15,656 nucleotides of DNA, from UHGV virus genome UHGV-0056727; one strand, given 5' to 3'. The notes beneath the pieces were generated by a model, which had not been told where the DNA came from, ran no database searches, and worked only from the letters and a program-made list of their open reading frames with translations. Below, one piece after another: positions 2-5,566 of this stretch. Origin of the DNA: a virus. The translations under genes and the position numbers were made by a program. The first letter of the stretch is position 1, and each line of letters starts with the position of its first letter.

Positions 2-382
2 TCGGATGTTATCCGGTGGTGGCGAAAACAACCTTTTGATTTGCAAATCCCGGAGCACCTAGGGAACTGTGTTTTTTGCATCAAAAAGTCAACGCAAAAG
101 CTGGGGCTTGCATGTAAAGACGAACCTGGTCTGATGCGGGTTTTTAATGAACTGGTTACAGGTAAACACGTCCGGGATGGTCACCGAAAGACAAATAAAG
201 ACGTTATGTACCGTGGTCATCTGAGCCTTGACGGGATTGCCAGAATGTATGCCGACAGCGACTACAGAAATTTGTATCAGGCGATGGTGCAAGCCAGGCG
301 ATTCGATACCGGCTCGTGTTCAGAGTCATGTGAAATCTGGGGTGATCAATTGGAGTTGAAATTCGAAGAGGTGGTGGCATGA
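2..382 (+). CDS. Hypothetical protein, C-terminal part (5' end lies upstream of the window); contains CxxC and CxxxC motifs
   Basis: Frame 2 is open from nt 2 with no stop before TGA 380-382, which overlaps the next gene's ATG (ATGA at 379-382). Function not recognised. Confidence 0.5.
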   Translation, partial: SDVIRWWRKQPFDLQIPEHLGNCVFCIKKSTQKLGLACKDEPGLMRVFNELVTGKHVRDGHRKTNKDVMYRGHLSLDGIARMYADSDYRNLYQAMVQARRFDTGSCSESCEIWGDQLELKFEEVVA

Positions 383-1083
383 CAACCAAAATTAACTATC
401 AGGCACTACGTGAGATAGCAAAACAGGCAACACAGGGCGAATGGGTCGCGTTTATTTCGACGGGTACAGGTACGTATGCTGTGCATACGCCCGGTGATAA
501 ACGATGTGAAGATGTTATCAAATGGACCGGCTTTGATGGGCTGAAAAACGCAGAGAACAACGCTCGTTATGTTGCCGCATTCAACCCAAAGGTTGCACTG
601 GAGCTACTTGGTGAAATTAAGCGCCTGGAGGACACAAATATTGATGCTATGTGCCGAATAGCACCGCTTGAGACTAAGCTCGCGGCGCTGGTGGCAGAGA
701 ACGCCGGGCTGAAACACGCAATGGCCGTAACTCTTGAGCATGTGTCGGTCACGGATGCAGGGCAGGCTGGTGTTGCTGCAATGATTATCAACGATGCCCT
801 ACACCACAGCGAAACTCCAGCTACCGATGCTTTTCTGGCTGAAATTCGTGCGGAAGCACGCAACGAGGGGATTAACTATACCGCCAGCCGTCTTGCTGCT
901 GCGTTCAATCACGGATTTATCAATAAGTCTTTGCGTGAAGTTTTCGACGTTACACGCATGATTTTGTCAGCGAAAGAAGAGTTGGCTAATGAAGCGCATC
1001 CGATTGATGGCCTGTCTGGTGAATATGCGGAGAAATCCCTTGAAGAATGGGCGGAACAGATTCGCAAAGGAAGCAGCCAGTGA
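379..1083 (+). CDS. Ead/Ea22-like family protein (234 aa)
   Basis: N-terminus MTTKINYQALREIAKQATQGEW... is the signature I associate with Ead/Ea22-like phage proteins. ATG overlaps the upstream stop. Shares identical 21-23-nt blocks with the ORFs at 2378 and 2662. Confidence 0.7.
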   Translation: MTTKINYQALREIAKQATQGEWVAFISTGTGTYAVHTPGDKRCEDVIKWTGFDGLKNAENNARYVAAFNPKVALELLGEIKRLEDTNIDAMCRIAPLETKLAALVAENAGLKHAMAVTLEHVSVTDAGQAGVAAMIINDALHHSETPATDAFLAEIRAEARNEGINYTASRLAAAFNHGFINKSLREVFDVTRMILSAKEELANEAHPIDGLSGEYAEKSLEEWAEQIRKGSSQ

Positions 1084-1370
1084 ATATCGACACGACAATA
1101 ACGATCGATACGCTCCTAAATACCGGTCTGGCACTTCTCGGTTGGCTTTACATCATGTCCCGTACATGGCGATGGCTGGGTTCCATTTTCCTAAAACAGT
1201 GGAAAAAACGGCGCAAACAGGAACTACGCCAGAAGGCATTAGAAGCGTTCTATGACGCATTTGAGCTTAGCCGTATTGAACCAGGTACAACAGCCAGGAT
1301 AGCGACAAAAGGCGACCTGATGATAGTGATGTTCCGACAGGAGAGAGCAGAGAAAGGGGAATCAGCATGA
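1080..1370 (+). CDS. Small membrane protein (~96 aa from GTG 1080; alternative ATG at 1047), one predicted TM helix followed by a basic segment
   Basis: GTG 1080 overlaps the upstream stop (GTGA) and the stop overlaps the next ATG (ATGA 1367-1370). Hydrophobic stretch LLNTGLALLGWLYIM then WKKRRKQELRQK. Confidence 0.4.
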   Translation: MNIDTTITIDTLLNTGLALLGWLYIMSRTWRWLGSIFLKQWKKRRKQELRQKALEAFYDAFELSRIEPGTTARIATKGDLMIVMFRQERAEKGESA

Positions 1371-2080
1371 AATTTTCCAAATTTTCTGAGTTGGTGAATC
1401 GTATTTTGTCCAACAACCACAGCCATCGTCGCGATATGGATGTAACAATCGTTGTTCATTCGCCTGGCAGCATTGGTTCAACACCTTCAGTTGAGGTTCA
1501 GTCAATTCACGCTGGTTTTGATTGGGATTCCGGGAAAGTGCTTATTTTCCCATCACAGCCACTGACCACGCTAACACCAGAACAGATTACTGATATCACT
1601 GATAGTGTGCGCAAAGGTCAGTCTTGGCACGCATTTCAGGAATACAAGAAGCATCAAGAGCAGTTGGAAAAATTGTCGATTGAACTGGATGCCGCAAAAC
1701 AGCGCATTGCAGAGCTGGATGGTAATCGCACGGCGCTGGCAGTGGAGAATGCCTCAATGAAGCTGTTTATCAGGGGCTGTTGCTACGTGTTTGATGGCCA
1801 GCAGGATGAAATATCTGATGCGTATATCTGCGCAACAGACGGAGGGATGCCGCAAATTCCAGCCACCGACGCTTTCCTGGCTGAAGTTCGGGCGCAGGGG
1901 GTGGATGCTGCTATAGAAGCTGCAAAAAATCTGGTGGCCCAAGAATATGAGTATAAGGATTTCAAAGCGGCGCAGAGTGATTGCTGTATGCACCCTGGTT
2001 CAGACCGGGTAGGGAAGGTTGAAATGACTGAGTGGTTAGTTGACTTTGCTGCCCAGCTTCGCAAAGGAGGCAACCAGTGA
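1367..2080 (+). CDS. Hypothetical protein (237 aa) with a C-terminal module paralogous to that of the 379..1083 protein
   Basis: ATG with upstream AAGGGGA RBS. C-terminal block ...TDAFLAEVRAQG...QLRKGGNQ parallels ...TDAFLAEIRAEA...QIRKGSSQ of the first Ead-like protein. Confidence 0.65.
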   Translation: MKFSKFSELVNRILSNNHSHRRDMDVTIVVHSPGSIGSTPSVEVQSIHAGFDWDSGKVLIFPSQPLTTLTPEQITDITDSVRKGQSWHAFQEYKKHQEQLEKLSIELDAAKQRIAELDGNRTALAVENASMKLFIRGCCYVFDGQQDEISDAYICATDGGMPQIPATDAFLAEVRAQGVDAAIEAAKNLVAQEYEYKDFKAAQSDCCMHPGSDRVGKVEMTEWLVDFAAQLRKGGNQ

Positions 2081-2376
2081 CTGTATGTCTTATTGATAAA
2101 CGTCGACGTGGGCAACAAATACCATCTGTTGAAATGCCGAATCACACATGGTTTTGCGTACTTGATATCGATGGTATGGATACGTTGGTTGACACTCGTC
2201 ATTACTGCGATACCGCAACAGCTACTCCGGCGAAAGCAAAGAAAATGGCTGCTCTGATAGAAAACTGGACTCCACCTGATGGTTGGTGCAATGGGAATGA
2301 TCGAGATTGGCACGAAAAAATGAAGGGCTATATCTGCGATTTTTTACGTAAATGCAACGGCTTCAGGGTGATGTGA
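2077..2376 (+). CDS. Small Cys-containing hypothetical protein (99 aa), GTG start
   Basis: GTG 2077 overlaps the upstream stop (GTGA), the same junction architecture as at 1080. The stop is 1 nt before the next ATG. Confidence 0.4.
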   Translation: MTVCLIDKRRRGQQIPSVEMPNHTWFCVLDIDGMDTLVDTRHYCDTATATPAKAKKMAALIENWTPPDGWCNGNDRDWHEKMKGYICDFLRKCNGFRVM

Positions 2377-2377
2377 T

Positions 2378-2665
2378 ATGACCAAAATTAACTATCAGGC
2401 ACTGCGTGAGGCGGCAGAACGTGCAATTCCGGCAATGGAACGTCTGTCAATGTTGCCAGTTGATGATGATTTGTTAAGTGAACAGGAACTTAAAGATTAC
2501 GGTGTGGATATTGATGCGCTCAACGCCTTCAAATTTCTGGCCGGACCAGAAACCGTGCTGGCGCTGCTGGATGAAAACGAAAGACTGTGTCGCGAGCTGA
2601 TAGCTCGTAATGGTGAGATTGAAGGGCTTCGGAAGTGGGCAGAAGAACGGGAGATGCAACCATGA
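2378..2665 (+). CDS. Short Ead-like N-terminal-domain protein (95 aa)
   Basis: ATG 2378 preceded by GGGTGA. N-terminus MTKINYQALREAAERA... A 23-nt block (2381-2403) is identical to 385-407. Confidence 0.6.
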   Translation: MTKINYQALREAAERAIPAMERLSMLPVDDDLLSEQELKDYGVDIDALNAFKFLAGPETVLALLDENERLCRELIARNGEIEGLRKWAEEREMQP

Positions 2666-3591
2666 TGACTTTTACCAGCGAACAATTAGCTACCTTACGT
2701 AAGATAGCGCAACAGGCAACACAGGGCGAATGGCGTGCATTCATCTCGCCGGACACTGGTACATATGCGGTGCATACGCCGGGGGATGAACGTTGCGGAG
2801 ACATTATCAAATGGCCTGGCTTTGACGGCCAGAAAAATGCAGAGAACAACGCAGAATTTATCGCAGCTTTCAACCCTAAATTAGTGCAGACACTGCTGGA
2901 TGAACGGGAAAGAAACCAGCAATACATCAAACGCCGCGACCAGGAGAACGAGGGGATTGCGCTTACGGTTGGGAAGCTGCGTGTTGAGCTTGAAGCAGCA
3001 AAATCAAAACTCAACGAGCAGCGTGAATATTACGAGGGAGTAATCGCGGATGGAAGTAAGCGCATAGCAGAACTGGAAAAACAATGCGCCGAATGGGAGC
3101 GAAAAGCATTAAGCAACTTTGAAGAGTGTGCTGCGATGGCTGAACGTATCGAAGAGATGCAGACAAAATCTGCACCAGATTCGTTTGGCATCATCGGTGA
3201 AAATATTCGAACACAGGACAATCGAATAACGTCAGATCCCATGTTTTGTGTGTATCAAAAGCGCGAAATCGCTGTTGATGCTGATTATGACCATGACCGG
3301 ATTGTCTGGGTTGACGAAGATGGCAATGAAGCCAATAAACGCCATAGTCGTCGTCTCGAGCTACTTCATGAAAACTTTCGAGAGCCACCAGAAAAATGGC
3401 GGCGCGTTGCTGTGAAAGATATTGATGAATTCGTTACCTGCTGTTTCACCGAACAGGGTTGTAAAGACTACCTGGCAGTCAATGGTCACAATCTTCGCTT
3501 GCCATTTATATATGTAAAAAGCGGTTTCAGGAACGCTGAATATATCGGCATAAGAAACTGGCTTGCTGGCATTCGCATCAAAGGAGAGTGA
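2662..3591 (+). CDS. Ead/Ea22-like family protein (309 aa from ATG 2662) with a coiled-coil middle and a distinct C-terminal domain
   Basis: ATG 2662 overlaps the upstream stop (ATGA). N-terminal ...QQATQGEWRAFISPDTGTYAVHTPGDERCGDIIKWPGFDGQKNAENNAEFIAAFNPK is about 70% identical to the 379 protein. Identical 21-mer at 2714-2734 and 424-444. Confidence 0.7.
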   Translation: MMTFTSEQLATLRKIAQQATQGEWRAFISPDTGTYAVHTPGDERCGDIIKWPGFDGQKNAENNAEFIAAFNPKLVQTLLDERERNQQYIKRRDQENEGIALTVGKLRVELEAAKSKLNEQREYYEGVIADGSKRIAELEKQCAEWERKALSNFEECAAMAERIEEMQTKSAPDSFGIIGENIRTQDNRITSDPMFCVYQKREIAVDADYDHDRIVWVDEDGNEANKRHSRRLELLHENFREPPEKWRRVAVKDIDEFVTCCFTEQGCKDYLAVNGHNLRLPFIYVKSGFRNAEYIGIRNWLAGIRIKGE

Positions 3592-3592
3592 T

Positions 3593-4110
3593 ATGGCGTT
3601 AACACACCGCGAACTCTGTCAGATTGCGTACAAGTTCCTTAAGCGCAACGGGTTCAAGGTTTGCTTTCATGACCGCTTTATAGCTGTAACCAGTACCGGA
3701 GAACAGCCAGATGCTATGGGATTCAGAAATTCAGCATCATGCTTGATAGAGGCGAAGTGTTCTCGTGCTGACTTGTTGGCAGATAGAAAAAAGCGTTTCC
3801 GTAAAAATCCGTCTCTTGGAATGGGCGACTGGCGATATTCTTTATTAGTGAGCCGGGAATTATTTCAGTTGAGGATTTACCTCCCGGCTGGGGATTACTT
3901 CACGTTGTTAACGGAAGAGTACGGAAAGTACATGGATGGCCCAAGGGGAATTGCTGTTGGGGTAATCCTGACGATAAGCCATTTACTGGGAATAAGCAGG
4001 TTGAATGCGATTACATGTTATCTGCATTAAGGCGCATGGAGCTAAGAGGACACCTTAATGAAATATATGACGGTGTAATTGTTAATAAGAAAGAAGGAAA
4101 CGCGGCATGA
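3593..4110 (+). pseudogene. Putative PD-(D/E)xK-motif protein apparently interrupted by a frameshift (frame 2 from ATG 3593, continuing in frame 1 to stop 4108-4110)
   Basis: Strong RBS AAGGAGAG before ATG 3593. PD...EAK motif in frame 2 (EQPDAMGFRNSASCLIEAKCS). Frame 1 is open 3805-4110, has no usable start, and ends on the ATGA overlap with the next gene. The annotated frame-2 ORF ends at 4030, leaving a 77-nt gap. Confidence 0.4.
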
Positions 4111-4463
4111 CCACTATTACCGACAAAGAACTGATTAAAGAAATCAAAGAGCGCATAGGCAGCTTGGACGTTCGAGACAATATTGAGCGCCGTGCTTATG
4201 AAATTGCACTGGCATCGCTGGAAGCAGAACCGATAGCGTGGGAATGCGGTGAAAACATAATCCTGTTTAACCCTGACACAGTTGAAGCATACGCAAAACG
4301 TGCGGAAATATCACCTAAACCACTATTCTCCGCGCCGCCAGCGCTGGTAGTGCCTGATAAGTTGCCGCGTGAATACAGAAACGGTTGGCCTCTTGCGTAT
4401 AGTGATTATGCTGAAGGCTGGAACGACTGCCGCGAAGCCATGCTTCAGGGAGATAAATCATGA
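4107..4463 (+). CDS. Hypothetical acidic protein (118 aa)
   Basis: ATG/stop overlaps with both neighbours (ATGA at 4107 and 4460). Confidence 0.65.
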   Translation: MTTITDKELIKEIKERIGSLDVRDNIERRAYEIALASLEAEPIAWECGENIILFNPDTVEAYAKRAEISPKPLFSAPPALVVPDKLPREYRNGWPLAYSDYAEGWNDCREAMLQGDKS

Positions 4464-4819
4464 TTAATCGTATCAAGCTGGAGCACATCCTCGAATATGC
4501 CAGGCAGCAGAGGCATATTGGTCAGCATTGTAAAATTCCACCAGGAGATATGGTTGAAATCATGGAGATTGCCATGCGCAAGGCTGGCAACTCTCCGGTA
4601 ACTCCGGATGGTTGGATAAGCTGTAGTGAGCGAATGCCGAATACCAAAACAGCCGTTCTTGTTGCCGTGGAGTTTGACAGGAAAGGTGACTGGCGAATGA
4701 AATGGGCTACTTACATCCCGGGGCATCCTGACGCTAATGATGGGTGGATAATTCCTGGTGCGTCGTGGAAACCGTCACACTGGATGCCGCTACCAGAACC
4801 GCCGCAGGAGGCAAAATGA
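4460..4819 (+). CDS. DUF551-like phage protein (119 aa)
   Basis: C-terminal W...RMP...VLVA...W...SHWMPLPEPP pattern, which I recall as DUF551. Coupled to both neighbours. Confidence 0.65.
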   Translation: MINRIKLEHILEYARQQRHIGQHCKIPPGDMVEIMEIAMRKAGNSPVTPDGWISCSERMPNTKTAVLVAVEFDRKGDWRMKWATYIPGHPDANDGWIIPGASWKPSHWMPLPEPPQEAK

Positions 4820-5076
4820 TGGATGTAAAAGAGAAGGTTTTGCAGGTGATACGTTCCCGTGCTGCCCTGCAAGAGAAAGCTCTCGGCGGGGAATATCCAT
4901 TCACGATAGCAACCTGGAATCTGCGGTTGGCAATGGAGAAGGAATTTCCTGATGAAGAATGGCGTTCGGCAGATTTGCGCAAAATTCTTATGGAGATGGC
5001 TAAAGATGGAACAGTATCCAAAGATACCCATGCCAGCCGGATTGGTCAGGCGGTATGGAGACTGGAGGTGAGATAA
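4816..5076 (+). CDS. Hypothetical protein (86 aa)
   Basis: ATG 4816 with AGGAGG RBS 7 nt upstream, overlapping the upstream stop. The ORF-track start at 4744 is a GTG extension in the same frame. Confidence 0.6.
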   Translation: MMDVKEKVLQVIRSRAALQEKALGGEYPFTIATWNLRLAMEKEFPDEEWRSADLRKILMEMAKDGTVSKDTHASRIGQAVWRLEVR

Positions 5077-5161: not shown

Positions 5162-5395
5162 ATGGGAAAATTAACTTTTGTAGTCGAATTTGAGGATGGT
5201 AAAGAGCCACCTGTTAGCGCCAATCTTGATGTTGCTGGTGGCAGGCTTGTTTCGGTTCTATTTGGTGACTACCGAGATGACTTCTTCCAACCAGAAGAAG
5301 TTGATGTAGTGCGAGAGGCATTAAACGAGTTAAGTGTTGATAACGATGATGCTCATGCGGAAATCATCCAAAAAATGGAACTGCTAACTCACTAA
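5162..5395 (+). CDS. Small strongly acidic protein (77 aa, about 18 D/E against 6 K/R)
   Basis: ATG 5162 lies 2 nt after the stop of the peptide ORF, with GGTGG upstream. The track start at 5144 is a TTG extension. Confidence 0.5.
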   Translation: MGKLTFVVEFEDGKEPPVSANLDVAGGRLVSVLFGDYRDDFFQPEEVDVVREALNELSVDNDDAHAEIIQKMELLTH

Positions 5396-5443
5396 ATTAT
5401 CAATTATGGTGCTATCACCTACGACACCGAGAGAAAATTTATA

Positions 5444-5566
5444 ATGTCAAAAGTAAATGTTTTGATTTTTTCAGCAATTGTTGGCTTTGGTTTTACTGCC
5501 GGAGTGCAGATTTATATTACGTGGAAAAAAATCATCAACTACGCATGGAGTTGTTTTATTAAGTGA
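5444..5566 (+). CDS. Possible small single-TM peptide (40 aa) in an AT-rich spacer
   Basis: ATG 5444, hydrophobic core VLIFSAIVGFGFTAGVQIYI then WKKIINYAW. No convincing RBS, so this could equally be a non-coding promoter region. Confidence 0.25.
   Translation: MSKVNVLIFSAIVGFGFTAGVQIYITWKKIINYAWSCFIK

What the first reader, a model, noticed from the sequence alone, without database searches (positions are those of the whole stretch)
3593..4110. Apparent frameshift splitting a PD-(D/E)xK-motif gene
An ORF with a strong RBS and a PD...EAK nuclease-like motif runs in frame 2 from 3593. The reading frame that ends on the ATGA overlap with the next gene (4107-4110) is frame 1, which is open from 3805 but has no start codon. 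Every other junction in this operon is tightly coupled, whereas the frame-2 ORF stops at 4030 and leaves a 77-nt gap. The simplest reading is a single gene carrying a 1-nt deletion near 3835-3845, the TATTCTTTATTAG region. It could be a pseudogene, a sequencing error, or a genuine two-frame arrangement.
Basis: partly seen in the sequence, partly recalled or inferred. Interest (0 to 1): 0.5.

Follow-up and report, generated by a model that had tools for sequence, protein, structure and literature searches.

The report
Frameshift-broken MmcB-like nuclease gene
A conserved 171-residue phage/plasmid nuclease-like gene is split here by a 2-base insertion (AT to ATAT), so this copy is an ordinary frameshift pseudogene and not a special two-frame gene.

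Summary
An ORF starts at 3593 and stops at 4030. The frame that ends on the ATGA overlap at 4107-4110 is open from 3805 with no start codon before 4015.

Intact relatives are a single 516-nt gene of 171 aa, for example phage P7 Upf89.0, Stx phages and IncI2 plasmids. The window differs from the closest allele only by two extra bases, AT to ATAT at 3835-3838.

In relatives, both halves are under purifying selection in the single native frame. No rescue-competent slippery site exists.

The same frameshifted allele occurs in three other metagenome contigs, at least two of them on an IncI2 plasmid backbone. It is therefore not a random read error. It is absent from 1,102 copies in complete E. coli genomes, 245 PLSDB plasmids and IMG/VR.

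In the window the allele sits as a 400-520 nt patch inside otherwise prophage-type flanks. That is either gene conversion or a low-coverage assembly chimera.

The parts
3582..3588 (+). Shine-Dalgarno (AGGAGAG) of the disrupted gene. The stop codon of the upstream Ead/Ea22-like gene is at 3589-3591.
   Evidence: Sequence read directly.
3593..3835 (+). 5' part of the gene in its native frame: codons 1-81 (M1 to R81). Includes the PD-(D/E)xK motif residues D40 (3710-3712), E53 (3749-3751) and K55 (3755-3757).
   Evidence: Translation. Alignment to intact homologues. The motif aligns with D/E/K of PDB 3DNX.
3835..3838 (+). ATAT where every intact homologue has AT. This is the 2-nt insertion (tandem AT duplication) that causes the frameshift.
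   Evidence: Alignments A1 and A2. Among all fetched loci, 124 carry AT and 3 carry ATAT.
3838..4110 (+). 3' part of the native gene, now out of register (window frame 1): codons 82-171 plus the TGA of the ATGA overlap. Not translatable from the 3593 start.
   Evidence: Translation. Deleting 2 nt gives a clean 171-aa ORF. This half carries 14 invariant residues across the family.
3836..4030 (+). Out-of-frame tail actually read from the 3593 start: 64 aberrant codons plus TAA at 4028-4030.
   Evidence: Translation. In relatives this frame shows 11 synonymous to 34 non-synonymous variants, close to the random expectation, against 29:16 in the native frame.
3652..4050 (+). Patch in which the window is 100% identical to the IncI2-plasmid allele but differs at 15 SNPs from the O157-prophage cassette. 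That cassette matches the flanks 2955-3651 and 4051-4639 perfectly.
   Evidence: SNP map.
4107..4463 (+). Downstream gene (118 aa, hypothetical). Its ATG overlaps the native stop of the disrupted gene (ATGA at 4107-4110). It has its own AAGGA Shine-Dalgarno 8 nt upstream of the ATG.
   Evidence: ORF list and sequence. Gene table.
3787..3793 (+). A_AAA_AAG heptamer in the zero frame. It is the only canonical -1 slippery site in the ORF, but the -1 frame stops at 3802-3804, so it cannot rescue the gene.
   Evidence: Heptamer and stop-codon scan.

Best explanation
Positions 3593-4110 hold one gene, not two. It is a copy of a conserved 171-aa accessory gene of enterobacterial phages and plasmids (phage P7 Upf89.0; phrog_9263/631).

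The copy is inactivated by a 2-bp tandem duplication, AT to ATAT at 3835-3838. Translation from the strong RBS at 3593 yields the native residues 1-81, then 64 out-of-frame residues, and stops at 4030. The last 90 native codons are left unread in the frame that ends on the ATGA overlap.

The intact protein is a single-domain PD-(D/E)xK nuclease-fold protein (D40, E53, K55). Its closest characterised relatives are DUF1052/MmcB-like proteins. By inference only, it would cut or process DNA in a repair or recombination setting.

The frameshift falls inside core strand β4. It removes β4 to β6 and the C-terminal helices, so this copy is most likely non-functional. The downstream gene keeps its own Shine-Dalgarno and can probably still be translated (inferred).

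Shown here: the gene structure, the nature and position of the lesion, its rarity, the fold, and purifying selection on the single frame. Inferred: the loss of function, the nuclease activity and the biological role.
For: Lesion and gene structure
- Base-level alignment shows only a 2-nt insertion relative to intact 516-nt genes that end on ATGA.
- The closest alleles in complete E. coli genomes and in PLSDB are 99.6% identical, that is 516 of 518 bases.
- The repaired ORF is 171 aa and identical to a common allele.

Family evidence for a single frame
- PHROG hits span both halves in a single stretch.
- 325 homologues were found; full-length ones are 160-176 aa.
- Invariant residues lie on both sides of the shift.
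- Synonymous to non-synonymous variants are 29:15 and 29:16 in the two halves of the native frame. Random expectation is about 21% synonymous. In the frame the window now reads, the count is 11:34.

The allele is real
- The exact 145-aa product is on record in 4 contigs; the three retrieved come from three ENA assemblies. The 518-nt module is 100% identical in them.

Fold
- AF2 model: pLDDT 88.8, pTM 0.82, with β4 at residues 80-85.
- Foldseek: E 1.1e-5 to 3DNX.
- 3DNX is DUF1052/PF06319 (PMC3424549).
- MmcB is described as a PD-(D/E)xK endonuclease protecting Caulobacter from mitomycin C (PMC9578287).
- Viral structure hits are annotated MmcB-like.
Against: - No expression or activity data exist.
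- The catalytic D/E/K residues all lie upstream of the shift, so a residual or altered activity of the 145-aa product cannot be excluded.
- The allele has never been seen in an isolate genome.
- The window contig has only 3.5x coverage. Whether this particular P1-like element really carries the lesion is therefore uncertain.
- Pfam, NCBIfam and PADLOC give no significant hit, so the functional label rests on fold similarity and sub-threshold sequence matches.
Confidence: 0.87

Rival explanations
1. The ATAT allele is real but belongs to a co-resident IncI2 plasmid. On this reading, its presence inside the P1-like contig is a metagenome-assembly chimera. Bubble-popping or a path switch between two ~97% identical alleles would produce it. 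The P1-like element's own copy might then be intact.
For: - Window positions 2955-3651 and 4051-4639 are 100% identical to an O157-prophage cassette. Positions 3652-4050 are 100% IncI2-type.
- The stretches shared by both alleles at the patch edges are only 59 and 61 nt. That is about the k-mer size typically used by SPAdes (my knowledge).
- Contig coverage is 3.5x.
- No phage record carries the IncI2-type allele; the best phage hit is 97.5% identical.
Against: - The same contig is recorded for 2 samples.
- Mosaic exchange at gene boundaries is the norm in this region. The same IncI2-type allele also occurs in a chromosomal context next to a DUF551 gene (H111). A genuine gene-conversion tract would look identical.
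Confidence: 0.3
2. The 2-nt insertion is a sequencing or assembly error, and the gene is intact in nature.
For: - Low coverage of 3.5x.
- The allele is absent from 1,102 places in 820 complete E. coli genomes and from 245 PLSDB plasmids.
- It is also absent from IMG/VR, the GTDB representative genomes and JGI metagenomes.
Against: - The identical insertion is present in three further contigs. The two retrieved come from other ENA assemblies with different contig-naming styles (NODE_, k127_, k109_) and have a different backbone.
- A 2-nt non-homopolymer insertion is not a typical Illumina error (my knowledge).
- Caveat: L126 and L127 are 100% identical over 2.5 kb, so they represent one plasmid lineage.
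Confidence: 0.05
3. A genuine two-frame arrangement: programmed -1 (or +2) ribosomal frameshifting or transcriptional slippage restores a full-length protein.
For: - Frame 1 is open from 3805 through the ATGA overlap.
- An 8-bp GC-rich hairpin lies at about 3851-3889, just downstream of the shift site.
Against: - Apart from the three ENA contigs with the identical allele, no relative has the two-frame layout: 124 AT copies against 3 ATAT copies.
- The only X_XXY_YYZ heptamer, at 3787, runs into a stop at 3802. No homopolymer of 6 nt or more lies in the rescue window.
- The hairpin region folds no better than shuffled sequence (z -1.68).
- The three carriers examined are 100% identical, so there is no evolutionary support.
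Confidence: 0.02
4. A functional split or neo-functionalised gene. The 145-aa product (native 1-81 plus a new hydrophobic tail) or the 31-aa frame-1 ORF (4015-4110) has a selected role. That role would explain why the allele appears on two backbones.
For: - The D40/E53/K55 motif is retained.
- The allele occurs in both IncI2 and P1-like contexts.
- The ATG at 4015 lies 13 nt upstream of the frame-2 stop codon, which could allow re-initiation.
Against: - Truncation inside β4 removes about half of a single-domain fold.
- The tail frame shows no coding constraint in relatives.
- There is no Shine-Dalgarno before 4015.
- The gene is broken in at least 5 other independent ways elsewhere, as expected of plain decay.
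- A neighbouring gene decays at a comparable rate.
Confidence: 0.04

Closest known systems
Phage P7 Upf89.0 (AAQ07564.1; AF503408 89016-89531) and its orthologues in Stx-converting phages, phage TL-2011b/c, Yersinia phage vB_YpM_39 and IncI2 plasmids
   Same: The same gene: 97-99.6% nucleotide identity and the same start. It follows an Ead/Ea22-like gene in P7, as in the window. It has the same ATGA overlap with the next gene.
   Different: Those copies are intact at 516 nt (171 aa). The window has two extra bases at 3835-3838. All are annotated only as hypothetical or unknown function.
DUF1052 / MmcB-like DNA repair protein family (Pfam PF06319; PDB 3DNX, SPO1766; Caulobacter MmcB)
   Same: - Single-domain PD-(D/E)xK fold of similar size.
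- Shared motif D...IE(A/C)K.SR.DF.AD.K.
- Distant family members give sub-threshold PF06319 hits.
- Phage homologues by structure are annotated MmcB-like.
   Different: - 24% identity.
- The protein itself gives no Pfam hit at E up to 1.
- It is carried on phages and plasmids of Enterobacterales rather than being a chromosomal SOS gene of alpha-proteobacteria.
- No functional data exist for this clade.
Archaeal Holliday junction resolvase Hjc (PF01870) and other minimal PD-(D/E)xK nucleases
   Different: All hits are below threshold. The C-terminal half resembles DUF1052, not Hjc. There is no evidence of junction resolution.
dnaX-type programmed -1 frameshifting (A_AAA_AAG)
   Same: An in-frame A_AAA_AAG heptamer exists at 3787-3793.
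   Different: It lies upstream of a -1-frame stop at 3802 and cannot join the two halves. It is also present in intact alleles, where it simply encodes the conserved K66-K67.

Membership tests
Frameshift pseudogene of a single conserved gene | Intact homologues encode one protein that spans both reading frames. | tested here: met
   171-aa intact ORFs in P7, TL-2011b, vB_YpM_39, an O157 prophage and IncI2 plasmids. 95 of 113 complete IMG/VR copies are intact. Full-length homologues occur across Enterobacterales.
Frameshift pseudogene of a single conserved gene | A discrete indel, not a multiple of 3, relative to the intact allele at the frame switch. | tested here: met
   2-nt insertion, AT to ATAT, at 3835-3838. 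It is the only difference from the closest alleles.
Frameshift pseudogene of a single conserved gene | The lesion is present in the DNA molecule and is not an artefact. | tested here: inconclusive
   The same allele is in 4 contigs; the three retrieved come from three ENA assemblies. It is never seen in isolate genomes. In the window it could have been grafted in by assembly. Raw reads are not available here.
PD-(D/E)xK phosphodiesterase superfamily | Catalytic signature D ... (D/E)xK on strands β2 and β3. | tested here: met
   D40, E53 and K55 are invariant in 44 homologues. They sit at strands 41-45 and 48-54 of the model and align with D/E/K of 3DNX.
PD-(D/E)xK phosphodiesterase superfamily | αβββαβ core fold. 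| tested here: met
PD-(D/E)xK phosphodiesterase superfamily | Metal-dependent nuclease activity. | not testable with these tools
   Requires biochemistry.
MmcB-like / DUF1052 (Pfam PF06319) | Score at or above Pfam's gathering threshold (22 bits). | tested here: not met
   No hit for the repaired protein or for any of 44 close homologues at E up to 10. Distant relatives reach 16-18 bits.
MmcB-like / DUF1052 (Pfam PF06319) | Whole-domain structural match to the family's solved representative (3DNX). | tested here: met
MmcB-like / DUF1052 (Pfam PF06319) | Role in tolerance of DNA cross-linking agents; SOS regulation. | not testable with these tools
   Known for Caulobacter MmcB (PMC9578287). No data exist for this clade.
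Programmed -1 ribosomal frameshift | Slippery heptamer X_XXY_YYZ in the zero frame within the overlap of the two frames. | tested here: not met
   The only heptamer (3787) lies upstream of the frame-1 stop at 3802. None occurs in 3805-4027.
Programmed -1 ribosomal frameshift | The two-frame layout is conserved among relatives. | tested here: not met
   124 single-frame AT copies against 3 ATAT copies that are identical to one another. There are 0 carriers in 1,102 E. coli places and 245 plasmids.

The most novel reading that the evidence does not exclude
The frameshifted allele may really have moved by gene conversion between a conjugative IncI2 plasmid and a P1-like phage-plasmid. It may persist because loss of this MmcB-like nuclease is favoured, for example because the nuclease is costly or toxic to the carrier. 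The many independent lesions of the gene in prophages would then reflect selection for inactivation rather than neutral decay.
Probability: 0.08. Interest if true: 0.4.

Novelty: new member of a known kind. Interest (0 to 1): 0.15.

Why it matters
The main value is for annotation. The 3593-4030 ORF and the 76-nt "gap" should be annotated as one disrupted gene, not as a 145-aa protein plus intergenic DNA.

Three by-products are modestly useful:
- This widespread accessory gene has 3,245 cluster representatives, has no Pfam family and is labelled "hypothetical" everywhere. It can now be described as an MmcB-like PD-(D/E)xK nuclease.
- RefSeq/PGAP labels intact copies as "frameshifted", apparently because a 58-aa fragment from a common broken allele serves as the reference.
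- The same mutant allele on an IncI2 backbone and in a P1-like contig is either a trace of recent plasmid to phage-plasmid exchange or a warning about strain-level chimeras in low-coverage metagenome contigs.

None of this is surprising to a specialist.

Tried and rejected
- **Family libraries.** Pfam, NCBIfam and PADLOC gave no significant hit for either frame product or for the repaired protein.
- **Rfam.** Nothing on the window at gathering thresholds.
- **GTDB representative genomes.** The scan found neither allele. The collection holds one genome per species, so this is uninformative.
- **JGI metagenomes.** No ATAT carrier.
- **afdb50 fold library.** Not available.
- **Programmed frameshifting.** The heptamer, homopolymer and hairpin checks were all negative or non-significant.
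- **Selection for loss.** I asked whether the gene is broken unusually often. It is broken in 16-18 of about 111 IMG/VR copies, by at least 5 other independent lesions. The only neighbour with enough copies is broken in 4 of 14. The control is sparse and gives no sign of an exceptional rate.
- **Separate C-terminal gene or domain.** Rejected, because 3DNX aligns over the whole length and the fold is a single domain.

Full report
**1. The observation**

- An ATG at 3593 follows AGGAGAG (3582-3588) and the stop codon of the upstream Ead/Ea22-like gene.
- The ORF encodes P39-D40...E53-A54-K55 and stops at TAA 4028-4030.
- The frame that ends on the ATGA overlap with the next gene (4107-4110) is open from 3805, after TAA at 3802-3804.
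- That frame has no start codon until an ATG at 4015.
- The untranslated gap is 76 nt.
- The gene junctions from 379 to 5076 overlap or abut, apart from this one.

**2. One gene, broken by a 2-nt insertion**

Joining the two frame translations gives a protein that matches phrog_9263 over residues 3-172 in one stretch (E 1.4e-121). It also matches phrog_631 (E 1e-92).

Intact genes of 516 nt (171 aa) that end on the same ATGA overlap occur in:
- phage P7, where the gene is Upf89.0;
- TL-2011b and Yersinia phage vB_YpM_39;
- many Stx-converting phage records, where tblastn finds the full 171-aa reading frame.

A base-level alignment shows that the window has ATAT where all intact copies have AT (3835-3838). 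The closest alleles in complete E. coli genomes and in PLSDB are 99.6% identical. That is 516 of 518 bases, so they differ only by this insertion. Deleting two bases restores a 171-aa ORF identical to a common allele. The lesion is a 2-nt insertion rather than a 1-nt deletion, with the same effect on the frame.

**3. The single frame is the selected one**

- A protein search found 325 homologues. Full-length ones of 160-176 aa, at 60-99% identity, occur in Klebsiella, Lelliottia, Cronobacter, Pectobacterium, Serratia, Morganella, Providencia and others.
- In an alignment of 44 of them, invariant residues lie on both sides of the shift: W80 and R81 before it, then G98, W99, G100, L101, L102, G114, P129, F130, K134, E137, A144, R146, R147 and G152 after it.
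- Among 63 distinct intact DNA alleles from IMG/VR, variants are 29 synonymous to 15 non-synonymous in the 5' half. They are 29:16 in the 3' half.
- Random expectation is about 21% synonymous. In the frame the window now reads past the insertion, the count is 11:34.

**4. Recoding is not supported**

- The only canonical slippery heptamer in the ORF is A_AAA_AAG at 3787-3793. It lies upstream of the frame-1 stop at 3802, so it cannot join the halves.
- There is no homopolymer of 6 nt or more in the rescue window.
- A hairpin at about 3851-3889 is not more stable than shuffled controls (z -1.68).
- The layout is not conserved. Of all loci fetched, 124 carry AT and 3 carry ATAT, and those 3 are identical to one another.

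**5. Is the lesion real?**

The exact 145-aa frameshifted product is on record in four contigs:
- the window's own contig, ENA ERZ1308086 NODE_2017, 15,656 bp, coverage 3.5, seen in 2 samples;
- a 17-kb human-gut contig (ERZ916432, locus L126);
- a 2.5-kb contig (ERZ19650499, locus L127);
- one further contig of 20-50 kb, listed as similar to L126 and not retrieved.

In L126 and L127 the 518-nt module is 100% identical to the window, including ATAT, while the flanks differ. Their backbone is IncI2, 98.3% identical over 8.3 kb to pPG20180050.1-IncI2. L126 and L127 are 100% identical to each other over 2,552 nt, so they count as one lineage. A random error confined to the window's assembly is therefore unlikely.

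The allele is nonetheless rare. It was not found in:
- 1,102 places in 820 complete E. coli genomes, or 245 PLSDB plasmids, where the best identity of a 72-nt probe is 70/72;
- IMG/VR;
- GTDB representative genomes, although the intact allele is absent there too, so this scan is uninformative;
- JGI metagenomes.

**6. A caveat about the window itself**

Compared with an O157:H7 prophage cassette (L001), the window is identical over 2955-3651 and 4051-4639. It differs at 15 SNPs plus the insertion within 3652-4050. That interval is exactly where the window is 100% IncI2-type.

So the mutant allele sits as a 400-520 nt patch inside otherwise prophage/P1-type DNA. The stretches common to both alleles at the patch edges are only 59 and 61 nt. 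With 3.5x coverage, I cannot distinguish a genuine gene-conversion tract from a strain-collapse chimera in the metagenome assembly. Only the raw reads can settle this.

**7. What the gene is**

The window is a P1/P7-like (IncY-type) phage-plasmid segment. It carries hot, humD, phd-doc, pdcB, lpa, pacAB and c1. The gene lies in its variable accessory operon of lambdoid "ea"-type genes. The 3004-4583 cassette is absent from the nearest complete P1-like plasmid.

Sequence libraries give no name. An AlphaFold2 model built from the 44-sequence alignment is confident (pLDDT 88.8, pTM 0.82). It shows a single domain with helix 5-18, strands 23-26, 41-45 and 48-54, helices 58-71, strands 80-85, 100-105 and 108-113, and helices 134-160.

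Structure comparisons:
- Foldseek agrees, with E 1.1e-5.
- 3DNX is the structural representative of DUF1052/PF06319/COG5321 in the PD-(D/E)xK catalogue (PMC3424549). Pfam now names that family MmcB-like.
- The profile-to-PDB alignment lines up D40, E53 and K55 and a shared SR.DF.AD.K motif.
- Viral structure hits are annotated MmcB-like.

A profile search finds 3,245 cluster representatives at E up to 1e-3. Distant members reach 16-18 bits on PF06319 against a cut-off of 22.

The family is therefore best described as an unnamed sister family of MmcB-like nucleases. It works like one by fold and motif, but it is not a member by Pfam's criterion. Caulobacter MmcB is an SOS-regulated PD-(D/E)xK endonuclease that protects against mitomycin C and cisplatin (PMC9578287). 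Any such role here is inference.

**8. Consequence of the lesion**

The shift falls after R81, inside core strand β4. It replaces the remaining 90 residues, which carry β4 to β6, the C-terminal helices and 14 invariant positions, with 64 unrelated residues. 3DNX aligns over the whole length, so the lost half is part of the one domain and not a detachable module. Loss of function is the likely outcome (inferred).

The downstream gene has its own AAGGA Shine-Dalgarno 8 nt upstream of its ATG, so polarity is probably mild (inferred).

**9. Context: this gene decays often**

Of 113 complete AT copies in the IMG/VR sample, 18 are broken by other lesions:
- a 2-nt deletion at the E53 codon (10-12 copies, depending on how two variant alignments are read);
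- a 5-nt deletion at nucleotide 403;
- a nonsense mutation at codon 38;
- a 1-nt deletion at nucleotide 344;
- a 1-nt insertion at nucleotide 226.

Two of the 18 were flagged only because of an ambiguous base (N), and one of those carries an in-frame 6-nt insertion.

The one neighbouring gene with enough copies is broken in 4 of 14. The data therefore fit ordinary decay of accessory prophage genes and give no sign of special selection.

**10. Verdict**

This is an ordinary frameshift pseudogene of a conserved gene that had no functional name. Interest is low.

Noticed in passing
L001 3194-3372 (NZ_CP017442.1) and L128 6001-6179 (NZ_CP043212.1): RefSeq/PGAP annotates the intact 516-nt ORF as a 179-nt 'frameshifted' pseudogene and leaves the rest unannotated, although it translates cleanly to 171 aa. 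179 nt equals the 58-aa fragment made by the common 2-nt-deletion allele (phrog_16308) plus 2 nt. A broken allele therefore appears to serve as the reference protein.
   Followed up: partly
window 2955-4639: Flanks 2955-3651 and 4051-4639 are 100% identical to an O157:H7 prophage cassette. The gene interior 3652-4050 is 100% IncI2-plasmid type. This is either a gene-conversion patch or a metagenome-assembly chimera; the contig coverage is 3.5x.
   Followed up: partly
window 3787-3793: A dnaX-type A_AAA_AAG heptamer lies in the zero frame and is also present in intact alleles. A -1 shift there would terminate at 3802 and give a product of about 70 aa. It probably just encodes the conserved K66-K67.
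   Followed up: partly
IMG/VR loci L005-L124 (e.g. L007, L015, L023, L047, L080, L107): The same gene is inactivated by at least 5 other independent lesions. One is a 2-nt deletion exactly at the catalytic E53 codon, shared by 10-12 contigs.
   Followed up: yes
window 4107-4463: The downstream 118-aa hypothetical gene has homologues broken in 4 of the 14 IMG/VR loci that carry it (L043, L070, L080, L107). A diverged partial paralogue also lies upstream in the IncI2 backbone (L126 around 5353-5480).
   Followed up: no
window 3004-4583: This 1.6-kb cassette holds the end of the Ead-like gene, the nuclease gene, the 118-aa gene and the start of the DUF551 gene. It is replaced by a different cassette (DUF4014, HNH endonuclease, a longer DUF551 protein) in the nearest complete P1-like plasmid, pNJS001-1. 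The rest of the window is 99.3-99.7% identical to that plasmid as far as 13711 and 97% beyond.
   Followed up: partly
protein family of window 3593-4110 (alignment A3): The family has 3,245 cluster representatives at 50% identity with E up to 1e-3, and 2,452 with E up to 1e-10, yet it has no Pfam or NCBIfam model. It looks like a sister family of PF06319 MmcB-like.
   Followed up: partly
window 3851-3889: An 8-bp GC-rich inverted repeat (GCCGGGAA...TCCCGGC) lies inside the coding sequence. The region's folding energy is not significantly better than shuffled sequence (z -1.68).
   Followed up: partly
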